From Escherichia coli (GTDB lineage Bacteria; Pseudomonadota; Gammaproteobacteria; Enterobacterales; Enterobacteriaceae), in assembly GCF_016026235.1 (NCBI RefSeq), contig NZ_CP065613.1: DNA of 64,000 nt; one strand, given 5' to 3'. Shown one piece after another: positions 27,903 through 30,235 of this stretch; within the stretch, counting starts at the first letter, position 1, and the number at the start of each line of letters is the position of its first letter. Under the pieces are notes generated by a model. That model was given only the letters and a program-made list of their open reading frames with translations, had not been told where the DNA came from and searched no databases. Both the position numbers and the translations under genes were made by a program.

Positions 27903-28495
27903 GATTTTTCTCCTGTAATTTTCCTGGCTTACTTGCTGCTAGCTATTGCGGGGGCGCTATCAGCAGTACGAATTTTTTGGAACAGCAAAAAGGTAAAGAC
28001 GATCACCATGCCGAGCGCCGCCATGCCCATCAGCCACATATTGCGGTAGGCTTCTGCTGCGGGCAGGGTGTCTTGCCAGTGGCCGATAATTGGGTAAACG
28101 AAGACATCCGGCAGGAATCCTATCACCGAACAAATACCTACCGTGGTGCCCATAATGTAAGACGGTGTTCTCGCTTCGCCGGGGCAGGCCCAGTACAGTC
28201 CACGTGAGGCGTAGCAGGTGAATCCCAGCAGTAAAATCAGGCCAATCCCCATTGCGACCGATTGCGGGTTAGAGTTGGTAACAAGCAGGGCAGTCAGTGC
28301 CAGCAGGCCGATGATGGAAAGGATTTGGATCACGCGGGTAGGGGATTTCACTTTGCTGTAGGTGGTGATTATGCCGCCAAGTGGGCCGCACAGCGCGCGG
28401 AATATTTTGTTGATCACAATCCCCATGTAGCTCGCCGCCACCAGCGACATGCCGTACATTTCGGTCAGATAGTTGGTGGAGGTAATGACTCCAAC

Positions 28496-28999
28496 TTATT
28501 GATAGTGTTTTATGTTCAGATAATGCCCGATGACTTTGTCATGCAGCTCCACCGATTTTGAGAACGACAGCGACTTCCGTCCCAGCCGTGCCAGGTGCTG
28601 CCTCAGATTCAGGTTATGCCGCTCAATTCGCTGCGTATATCGCTTGCTGATTACGTGCAGCTTTCCCTTCAGGCGGGATTCATACAGCGGCCAGCCATCC
28701 GTCATCCATATCACCACGTCAAAGGGTGACAGCAGGCTCATAAGACGCCCCAGCGTCGCCATAGTGCGTTCACCGAATACGTGCGCAACAACCGTCTTCC
28801 GGAGACTGTCATACGCGTAAAACAGCCAGCGCTGGCGCGATTTAGCCCCGACATAGCCCCACTGTTCGTCCATTTCCGCGCAGACGATGACGTCACTGCC
28901 CGGCTGTATGCGCGAGGTTACCGACTGCGGCCTGAGTTTTTTAAGTGACGTAAAATCGTGTTGAGGCCAACGCCCATAATGCGGGCAGTTGCCCGGCAT
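28496..28999 (-). CDS. insB: IS1 InsB (expressed as InsAB fusion by frameshift)
   Basis: 167-aa ORF ...[44 protein letters not shown]... Confidence 0.95.
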
Positions 29000-29193
29000 C
29001 CAACGCCATTCATGGCCATATCAATGATTTTCTGGTGCGTACCGGGTTGAGAAGCGGTGTAAGTGAACTGCAGTTGCCATGTTTTACGGCAGTGAGAGCA
29101 GAGATAGCGCTGATGTCCGGCGGTGCTTTTGCCGTTACGCACCACCCCGTCAGTAGCTGAACAGGAGGGACAGCTGATAGAAACAGAAGCCAC
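28918..29193 (-). CDS. insA: IS1 InsA
   Basis: 91-aa [46 protein letters not shown]... Confidence 0.95.
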
Positions 29194-30235
29194 TGGAGCA
29201 CCTCAAAAACACCATCATACACTAAATCAGTAAGTTGGCAGCATCACCGTTGGTGGAGTAACTCAGAATGGCGTAGATGGTGAAGACACCAAAAATCACC
29301 ATGCTGCAATACCAGGTGGTGCTGATGCGCAAAACGGCCAGGATGTCGCTAAGCTGGAATGATTGTTTTTCTTCGTTATTGGCACTGCGCAGGTTGTTGT
29401 TATCGCTAACAAAAAACCAGCACAGAATCCCCAACAAGATGTAAACCACACTATAGATGATAATGACCGTTTTCAGGCTGGTGCTGTCATCCGGTGCAAA
29501 GCGAGAAAAAACCCACATGGTAAACACTGCCAGCGACATTACACCGACGCCGCGCAGCCCTTCCATCCAGCCCATAATTTTCCCTTGCTCGCTATGATCG
29601 CCAAGCAACGAGGCGGCTTTAATCGACACCGACCACAGCATTAAAATCGTCGTTATCGCAAATGCGACCTGAATACAGAGCATTACCCACAGCGGTGGAT
29701 ACGTTGCCATTAACAGACCCAGTAATCCGGTAATGATCATCGCGGAAGTAATCATTTTGCGATGTGAGAATTTATCGGCAATAACGCCGCTGGGGGCATA
29801 AAGAATAATAGCTGCAATACCAAAGGTACTCATTATTAAACCTATCTCGGTATTGCTGAATCCCATAAATTTCGCCATGGGAATTTGATAAATATAACGT
29901 AAATAAGCCAGGTCGAAACTAACGCCGCCGCTAAAACTAATTATCGCGAGGGTTATCCAACGGCGATATGAGTTGTGTTGCATATCGTATTCCCATTTGT
30001 AATAGACAAAAAAAAGAGAAAAGTAAGCCGCCCTTTCAGGTGGATTACTTTTCTCAGGTCTCTAGTAATTGAAATAATAAATAACATGGAAAGCAGAGGT
30101 GTTGTGTGAGAGTAATCACGCTTCTGCTTTTTAAAACTATTTGATAATGCGAATATCACACTGTGATTACGATCACATTAGCAGTTATGTCCTTATGCTA
30201 AAAATTATCTCCAGTTACCAGAGATAATGAGAAAG

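What the first reader, a model, noticed from the sequence alone, without database searches (positions are those of the whole stretch)
27929..29983. IS1 insertion splitting the MFS transporter gene yqcE
A 768-bp IS1 with perfect 9-bp target duplication (GTTGGTGGA) sits inside yqcE, separating the N-terminal 245 codons from the C-terminal 176. This is a recent simple insertion inactivating a putative sugar-acid transporter next to the ygcE kinase.
Basis: seen in the sequence. Interest (0 to 1): 0.3.

Follow-up and report, generated by a model that had tools for sequence, protein, structure and literature searches.

The report
IS1 insertion splitting transporter gene yqcE
A standard 768-bp IS1 mobile element has jumped cleanly into the uncharacterised E. 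coli transporter gene yqcE and split it in two, an ordinary lineage-specific gene knockout in a genome already rich in insertion sequences.

Summary
An intact 768-bp IS1 (IS1A type) lies at window 28481-29248. It is flanked by a perfect 9-bp direct repeat, GTTGGTGGA, at 28472-28480 and 29249-29257. It sits inside the minus-strand gene yqcE (27929-29983). Removing the IS and one repeat copy restores a 1278-nt, 425-codon ORF. That ORF is 100% identical in DNA to the intact yqcE of a near-identical relative, E. coli FDAARGOS_943, which serves as the empty site.

One correction: the true C-terminal remainder is 180 codons.

The same junction occurs in at least seven public assemblies or read sets, one of them 100% identical to the window over 12.8 kb. 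It is therefore real and fixed in a small clone. It is absent from all 5,426 complete RefSeq E. coli genomes.

The break falls after predicted transmembrane segment 7 of 12, so the transporter is almost certainly dead. Polarity on the downstream kinase gene ygcE is inferred, not shown. "Sugar-acid transporter" is unproven; only MFS membership is supported.

The neighbourhood is decaying in other ways too. An ISEc60 copy replaces 5.2 kb running from ygcU to ygcN. The finding is ordinary and of low interest.

The parts
29249..29983 (-). yqcE 5' part: codons 1-245. The last three codons, Ser-Thr-Asn, are the upstream copy of the target duplication.
   Evidence: identical to codons 1-245 of intact yqcE in FDAARGOS_943.
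29222..29983 (-). Fusion ORF of 253 aa: YqcE residues 1-245 plus 8 residues (GDAANLLI) read from the IS1 left end, then a stop.
   Evidence: The exact protein is in public records as STM06111.1 and occurs on 11 contigs.
29249..29257 (.). Target-site duplication copy, GTTGGTGGA.
28481..29248 (-). IS1 (IS1A type), 768 bp, with its transposase genes in the same direction as yqcE.
   Evidence: 100% identity to annotated IS1A-family copies. Searches support the coding content.
29226..29248 (-). IS1 left inverted repeat (IRL), with the promoter-like site of insA just inside it (29241..29214).
28918..29193 (-). insA, 91 aa.
   Evidence: Zn_ribbon_InsA and HTH_Tnp_IS1 domains.
28936..28944 (-). TTAAAAAAC programmed -1 frameshift motif (A6C). 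It joins insA to insB' and gives a 232-aa InsAB' transposase.
   Evidence: the fused translation is open for 232 aa. DDE_Tnp_IS1 scores 259 bits.
28496..28999 (-). insB frame, a 167-aa ORF.
28481..28503 (-). IS1 right inverted repeat (IRR).
28472..28480 (.). Target-site duplication copy, GTTGGTGGA.
27929..28480 (-). yqcE 3' part: the duplicated Ser-Thr-Asn codons, then codons 246-425 and the stop. The longest ATG ORF inside it (27929-28459, 176 aa) starts at Met250.
26424..27902 (-). ygcE, an FGGY-family sugar kinase of 492 aa with an intact ORF. It lies 26 bp downstream of yqcE on the same strand and is probably subject to polarity from the IS1.
   Evidence: yqcE-ygcE is listed as one unit in PMC8085971.

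Best explanation
An active IS1A copy transposed by simple insertion into the chromosomal gene yqcE of an IS-rich E. coli lineage. The staggered cut at the target was filled in, duplicating GTTGGTGGA.

The insertion lies between codons 245 and 246, after predicted transmembrane segment 7 of a 12-segment MFS permease. Translation from the yqcE start now runs 8 codons into the IS1 left end and stops, giving a 253-aa stump. The last five membrane segments have no promoter or ribosome-binding site of their own. The transporter is therefore a null allele.

yqcE and the kinase gene ygcE are co-directional, 26 bp apart, and reported as one transcription unit. IS1 insertions are classically polar, so ygcE expression is probably also reduced.

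The event happened after this clone split from the FDAARGOS_943 lineage and is now fixed in a small group of isolates. It is one of several IS-driven lesions in the same ygc gene cluster, which fits neutral decay of a dispensable catabolic locus.

Shown: the structure, the target duplication, the empty site, the intactness of the IS, and the sharing among isolates.
Inferred: loss of transport function, polarity on ygcE, and neutrality.
For: - Boundaries, target duplication and restored ORF.
- Empty site: the restored gene is 1278/1278 nt identical to intact yqcE of FDAARGOS_943, where the 9-mer is present once at the corresponding position. Shared flanks are 99.93-99.98% identical (annotation).
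- IS1 is 100% identical to annotated IS1A-family copies.
- insA, the A6C motif, a 232-aa InsAB' and all three IS1 Pfam domains are present.
- The same fusion protein is on 11 public contigs. All 7 fetched loci carry the identical junction, and L001 is 100% identical to the window over 12,762 bp.
- The empty-site 97-mer is uninterrupted in all 5,074 complete E. coli genomes that carry it, and no complete genome has either junction as a contiguous match.
- YqcE has 12 hydrophobic segments, and the break lies between segments 7 and 8.
- yqcE-ygcE is listed as a Crp-activated unit (PMC8085971).
- No outward promoter-like site was found at the IRR end.
- Other lesions in the cluster: ISEc60 replaces 5,184 bp of K-12-equivalent DNA.
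Against: - Nothing contradicts the structural claim.
- Loss of function, polarity and neutrality were not measured.
- Split MFS permeases can sometimes work when both halves are expressed (known for LacY; my own knowledge).
- Read-through from the IS1 promoter into the 3' fragment and ygcE cannot be excluded.
- The direction of the event (insertion here versus precise excision in the sister lineage) rests on parsimony.
Confidence: 0.93

Rival explanations
1. The insertion is ancestral. The intact yqcE in FDAARGOS_943 would then arise from precise excision of IS1 by recombination or slippage between the two 9-bp repeats.
For: Precise excision of IS elements between target duplications is known to occur at very low frequency (my own knowledge). 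Only one closely related empty-site genome was found.
Against: All 5,074 complete E. coli genomes with this stretch have the empty site, so the empty state is ancestral for the species. One insertion is more parsimonious than an insertion followed by an exact reversal. Selection for reversion is unlikely, because FDAARGOS_943 has lost neighbouring ygc genes anyway.
Confidence: 0.02
2. The IS1 in yqcE is an assembly artefact, with a repeat collapsed or misplaced into the gene.
For: IS1 is a multicopy repeat that often confuses assemblers.
Against: The gene-to-IS1 junction is present in seven separately assembled records from NCBI and Logan. Six of these are short-read contigs that run from unique DNA into the IS1 end. 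A perfect 9-bp duplication with exact restoration of the ORF is the signature of real transposition, not misassembly.
Confidence: 0.01
3. The insertion does not abolish function. The two halves (TM1-7 and TM8-12) would be made separately, the second from read-through IS1 transcripts starting at Met250, and would assemble into a working permease. Alternatively, IS1 read-through would keep ygcE expressed.
For: IS1's own promoter and genes point the same way as yqcE and ygcE. An in-frame ATG lies 4 codons after the break. Split LacY halves can complement each other (my own knowledge).
Against: There is no Shine-Dalgarno-like sequence before Met250 (sequence) and no outward promoter-like site at the IRR. 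The split falls after TM7, not in the central loop between the two 6-helix domains. IS1 is classically polar in both orientations (my own knowledge). The rest of the gene cluster is already deleted.
Confidence: 0.04
4. The knockout was selected rather than neutral. Loss of the yqcE/ygc pathway would be advantageous in invasive or host-restricted E. coli/Shigella-type lineages.
For: Independent lesions hit the same cluster:
- IS1 in yqcE plus an ISEc60-associated 5.2-kb deletion in this genome.
- IS1-associated loss of DNA from ygcW to ygcO in FDAARGOS_943.
- A W224 stop codon in yqcE of Shigella dysenteriae type 1.
- Other IS1 insertions at different positions of yqcE in several E. coli genomes.
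Against: Recurrent hits are equally expected for any dispensable gene in IS-expanded genomes under relaxed selection. No phenotype is known for yqcE (13 papers mention it, none functionally). The site itself is not a hotspot in complete genomes.
Confidence: 0.1

Closest known systems
IS1 (IS1A/IS1R type) of Escherichia coli and Shigella, IS1 family
   Same: The length is 768 bp. The terminal inverted repeats are imperfect and about 23 bp long. insA and insB' are joined by an A6C -1 frameshift. The target duplication is 9 bp. The copy is 100% identical in DNA to annotated IS1A-family copies.
   Different: Nothing about the element differs. Only its location is particular to this clone.
yqcE (b2775) of E. 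coli K-12, a putative MFS transport protein of unknown substrate
   Same: The restored gene is 425 codons long, differs from K-12 at 34 nt and 5 aa, and keeps the same ygcW-yqcE-ygcE synteny.
   Different: Here it is split after codon 245 by IS1, whereas K-12 and 5,074 complete genomes have the site intact.
Classical polar IS1 insertion mutations in the gal and lac operons (1960s-70s genetics; my own knowledge)
   Same: An IS1 sits inside the promoter-proximal gene of a two-gene unit and is expected to abolish that gene and depress the distal one.
   Different: Polarity was not measured here. The operon status rests on a transcriptome paper's listing (PMC8085971).
IS-driven pseudogene formation in Shigella and enteroinvasive E. 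coli genomes
   Same: The window has a high IS density: one IS1, three ISEc60 copies or fragments and one IS4-family element in 64 kb. It also shows IS-associated deletion and rearrangement. ISEc60 is otherwise found at full length in only 14 of 5,426 genomes, among them strain CFSAN029787, on its chromosome and on its 294-kb plasmid.
   Different: The source record is labelled simply Escherichia coli. Its pathotype was not established here.

Membership tests
IS1 family insertion sequence | Element of about 768 bp bounded by imperfect terminal inverted repeats of about 23 bp (GGTGATGCTGCCAACTTACTGAT / GGTAATGACTCCAACTTATTGAT). | tested here: met
   768 bp. Both canonical ends are present, with 18 of the first 23 positions matching between the arms.
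IS1 family insertion sequence | insA and insB' reading frames joined by a programmed -1 frameshift at an A6C motif to give the InsAB' transposase. | tested here: met
   insA is 91 aa, TTAAAAAAC is at IS position 305, and the fused frame is open for 232 aa. DDE_Tnp_IS1 259 bits, HTH_Tnp_IS1 98 bits and Zn_ribbon_InsA 70 bits, all above the Pfam cut-offs.
IS1 family insertion sequence | Direct target-site duplication, typically 9 bp. | tested here: met
   GTTGGTGGA on both sides. The 9-mer is present once in the empty allele.
IS1 family insertion sequence | Sequence identity to reference or annotated IS1 copies. | tested here: met
   100% over 768 bp to copies annotated as IS1A family. 4,950 of 5,426 genomes carry a near-full-length IS1.
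IS1 family insertion sequence | Transposition activity of this particular copy. | not testable with these tools
   All coding and end sequences are intact, but mobility would need a mating-out or papillation assay.
yqcE orthologue (E. coli b2775) | Full-length collinear identity to annotated yqcE after removing the IS and one repeat copy. | tested here: met
   1278/1278 nt identical to yqcE of FDAARGOS_943 (WP_096854586.1), and 97.3% nt identical to K-12 b2775.
yqcE orthologue (E. coli b2775) | Conserved neighbourhood ygcW - yqcE - ygcE. | tested here: met
Major facilitator superfamily (MFS_1) | Pfam MFS_1 above the gathering score, and 12 transmembrane segments. | tested here: met
   90.3 bits against a cut-off of 33.4; 12 hydrophobic segments.
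Sugar-acid (anion:cation symporter, D-galactonate transporter-type) subfamily | Score at or above the curated cut-off of TIGR00893 (2A0114). | tested here: not met
   65.7 bits against a cut-off of 395. It is the best NCBIfam hit but is far below the threshold. No sequence relative has a solved structure at E<=0.01.
Sugar-acid (anion:cation symporter, D-galactonate transporter-type) subfamily | Demonstrated substrate. | not testable with these tools
   Thirteen papers in the library mention yqcE. The three read give no substrate, and none of the 13 titles concerns yqcE.

The most novel reading that the evidence does not exclude
The yqcE/ygc catabolic cluster is being lost convergently in IS-expanded, Shigella-like E. 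coli lineages because its loss is advantageous (pathoadaptive), rather than through drift. The independent lesions are IS1 in yqcE plus an ISEc60-associated deletion in this genome, an IS1-associated ygcW-ygcO deletion in the sister strain, and W224* in S. dysenteriae type 1. This IS1 allele would be one instance of that trend. A minor variant of this reading: the exact site is a recurrent breakpoint, since 16 contigs with other yqcE alleles end within 2 nt of it.
Probability: 0.08. Interest if true: 0.3.

Novelty: already known. Interest (0 to 1): 0.08.

Why it matters
It matters little beyond bookkeeping. The insertion is a clean, lineage-specific marker for a small clone of IS-rich E. coli. 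It shows that IS1A was recently active in that clone. It also adds one more lesion to a decaying gene cluster of unknown function (ygcE-yqcE-ygcW-ygcU...ygcN). For annotation, the two ORFs deposited as separate proteins (STM06111.1 and STM06114.1) should be treated as one pseudogene. It gives no new information about how IS1 works or what YqcE transports.

Tried and rejected
- **Same insertion in complete E. coli genomes.** Both junctions were searched. No complete genome holds either junction as a contiguous match. The five apparent left-junction hits are two-piece matches spanning 640-814 bp, which means IS1 insertions elsewhere in yqcE.
- **Composite query of gene plus IS.** Fifty-four genomes have an IS1 in or near the locus. 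The best identity is only 98.1%, and spans and piece counts show different positions.
- **Plasmid collection.** Only IS1 matches turned up, plus three chromosome-sized records; no record has the locus together with the IS.
- **GTDB species representatives and JGI metagenome contigs (pattern allowing either IS1 orientation).** Both returned zero matches.
- **Insertion hotspot test.** The empty-site 97-mer is uninterrupted in all 5,074 complete genomes carrying it, so the hotspot idea was rejected for complete genomes.
- **Identifying the strain or pathotype from the literature by accession numbers.** Nothing useful was found. Only the label 'Escherichia coli' was recovered, from the protein records.
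- **Solved structure for YqcE by sequence.** None was found.
- **Outward promoter at the IS1 right end that could drive the 3' fragment or ygcE.** None was found by consensus scan, which is weak evidence.
- **Literature on yqcE function.** It appears only in gene lists.

Full report
**1. The observation**

Reading window 27700-30300 and checking it by script shows a 768-bp element at 28481-29248. Its ends are the two canonical IS1 terminal repeats: GGTAATGACTCCAACTTATTGAT at the low-coordinate end, and GGTGATGCTGCCAACTTACTGAT on the opposite strand at the high-coordinate end.

The nine bases GTTGGTGGA lie directly outside both ends, at 28472-28480 and 29249-29257. The repeat cannot be extended to 10 bp, and the 9-mer occurs only once more in the 64-kb window.

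The element is 100% identical over all 768 bp to copies annotated 'IS1-like element IS1A family transposase' in many E. coli genomes. IS1 at near full length is present in 4,950 of 5,426 complete genomes. It is the only IS1 copy in the window.

**2. The element is intact**

All of the following lie on the minus strand:
- insA, 91 aa, at 28918-29193.
- The insB frame, 167 aa, at 28496-28999.
- The TTAAAAAAC slippery motif at 28936-28944.
- A simulated -1 shift gives an open 232-aa InsAB'.

InsAB' carries the three IS1 Pfam domains well above threshold: DDE_Tnp_IS1 at 259 bits, HTH_Tnp_IS1 at 98 bits and Zn_ribbon_InsA at 70 bits. NCBIfam transpos_IS1 matches both ORFs. A promoter-like site lies inside the left end, where the insA promoter is expected (29241..29214).

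**3. The interrupted gene**

The flanks belong to a minus-strand gene running from its start codon at 29983 to its stop at 27929. Deleting the IS and one repeat copy gives a 1278-nt ORF of 425 aa.

This restored sequence is identical at every one of 1278 bases to the intact gene annotated yqcE (MFS transporter, WP_096854586.1) in E. coli FDAARGOS_943. There GTTGGTGGA occurs once, at the corresponding position. It differs from K-12 yqcE (b2775) at 34 nt and 5 aa.

The codon arithmetic needs one correction:
- The upstream part is 245 codons, including the duplicated Ser-Thr-Asn.
- The ORF then reads 8 codons of IS1 (GDAANLLI) and stops, giving a 253-aa product.
- The downstream remainder is 180 codons, or 183 with the duplicated codons.
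- '176' is the ORF from internal Met250.

**4. Real, and shared by a clone**

The 253-aa fusion protein can only exist with this junction in this orientation. It is on record as STM06111.1 [Escherichia coli], and the 176-aa fragment as STM06114.1.

The fusion protein is encoded on 11 public contigs. One of them, a 4.56-Mb contig of GCA_900449985.1, is 100% identical to window 23222-35983 over 12,762 bp. The window therefore comes from that genome or a near-identical one.

Six further short-read contigs, from four other NCBI assemblies and two Logan read sets, are 99.96-100% identical and carry the same junction. They are bounded by ISEc60 on one side and IS1 on the other, as expected for contigs that break at repeats. 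This excludes an assembly artefact and shows that the allele is fixed in a small clone.

The allele is absent elsewhere:
- No complete RefSeq E. coli genome has either junction.
- The empty-site 97-mer is uninterrupted in all 5,074 complete genomes that carry it.
- GTDB representatives and JGI metagenome contigs hold no match.

**5. Age**

The closest complete genome, FDAARGOS_943, shares about 10.5 kb of flanking DNA with roughly three mismatches and one gap. It also shares the ISEc60 insertion between queE and ygcE, but it has the empty yqcE site.

There are zero substitutions in the split gene, and the IS copy is identical to the common IS1A. The insertion is therefore young relative to the divergence of these two lineages. 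It is still old enough to be shared by several isolates. Precise excision in the sister lineage is formally possible but unparsimonious.

**6. Consequences (inferred)**

YqcE matches Pfam MFS_1 (90 bits against a cut-off of 33) and has 12 hydrophobic segments. The break lies between segments 7 (residues 222-240) and 8 (residues 255-273).

The N-terminal stump lacks five helices. The C-terminal piece has no recognisable ribosome-binding site before Met250 (sequence), and there is no outward promoter-like site at the IS end. A null allele is by far the most likely outcome.

ygcE, an FGGY kinase with an intact 492-aa ORF, starts 26 bp downstream on the same strand. yqcE-ygcE is listed as a single Crp-activated unit in PMC8085971. 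IS1 insertions are classically polar (my own knowledge), so reduced ygcE expression is likely but untested.

**7. 'Sugar-acid transporter'**

The best curated subfamily hit is TIGR00893 (D-galactonate transporter subfamily), at 65.7 bits against a cut-off of 395. No sequence relative has a solved structure. The 13 papers that mention yqcE do so only in lists.

The neighbours make a sugar or sugar-acid catabolic role plausible: a KduD-like SDR (ygcW), an FGGY kinase, and an FAD-linked oxidase (ygcU). The subfamily test is nonetheless not met, and the substrate is unknown.

**8. Context**

The locus is decaying more widely.
- An ISEc60 (IS4-like) copy at 31576-32883 replaces 5,184 bp of K-12-equivalent DNA: the ygcU 3' part, ygcS, ygcR, ygcQ, ygcP, ygcO and the ygcN 3' end.
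- FDAARGOS_943 has a different IS1-associated deletion, from ygcW to ygcO.
- S. dysenteriae type 1 carries a W224 stop in yqcE.
- Several other E. coli genomes have IS1 at other positions in yqcE.

This pattern fits relaxed selection on a dispensable cluster in IS-expanded lineages. Positive selection for loss cannot be excluded, but there is no evidence for it.

**9. Verdict**

What is here is a textbook IS1 simple insertion that created a lineage-specific pseudogene. The element, the gene, the mechanism and even the sequence itself are already in public records. Interest is low.

Noticed in passing
window 31576-32883 (with flanks 31158-31588 and 32881-34057): An ISEc60 (IS4-like) copy truncates ygcU after about 143 codons and abuts ygcN, which is truncated at its 3' end. 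It replaces 5,184 bp of K-12-equivalent DNA (ygcU 3' part, ygcS, ygcR, ygcQ, ygcP, ygcO, ygcN 3' end). This copy's own transposase carries a nonsense codon (Arg to stop), unlike the copy at 24520-25828.
   Followed up: partly
window 24271-25828: A type I-E CRISPR array lies between queE and ygcE, with four exact 29-nt repeats at 24271-24482 spaced 61 nt apart. A fifth repeat is cut after GAGTTCCCC by a full ISEc60 copy (24520-25828). The same IS insertion is present, but further disrupted by ISSso6 and IS66 elements, in FDAARGOS_943.
   Followed up: partly
window 39105-41765: cysH is followed by a partial ISEc60 (39541-40303) and an IS4-family transposase gene (40370-41716), and then directly by lysS, prfB and recJ. 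In K-12 these lie about 145 kb away and in the opposite relative orientation. This points to an IS-bounded inversion or rearrangement, and the cas genes are not next to cysH here.
   Followed up: partly
window 19598-23054: The eno-queE interval does not match K-12 (ygcG and yqcG are absent). It holds three other minus-strand ORFs of 382, 307 and 200 aa. The last is LemA-like, with a weak match to the MamQ model.
   Followed up: no
L014/L015 (Shigella dysenteriae type 1 chromosomes CP061527.1 and CP026777.1), locus 3001-4281: yqcE there is independently inactivated by a TGG-to-stop change at codon 224. The resulting 223-aa product is seen on 66 contigs. An IS1 also lies beside ygcW in that genome.
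   Followed up: partly
L010-L013 (contig ends at yqcE nucleotides 735-737): Sixteen contigs from unrelated assemblies and metagenomes, carrying other yqcE alleles (17 nt different in L010), end within 2 nt of the same position as this IS1 insertion. None shows any IS sequence at its end. No complete genome has an interruption there. The cause is unexplained; possibilities include an assembly-graph branch or an unseen insertion.
   Followed up: partly
L009 (E. coli FDAARGOS_943, NZ_CP065615.1 4760194-4780774): The closest complete relative has an intact yqcE but a different lesion. A divergent IS1 (91% identical to the copy in the window) truncates ygcW and adjoins ygcO, deleting ygcU through ygcP. 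A second IS1, identical to the copy in the window, lies just upstream of queE.
   Followed up: partly
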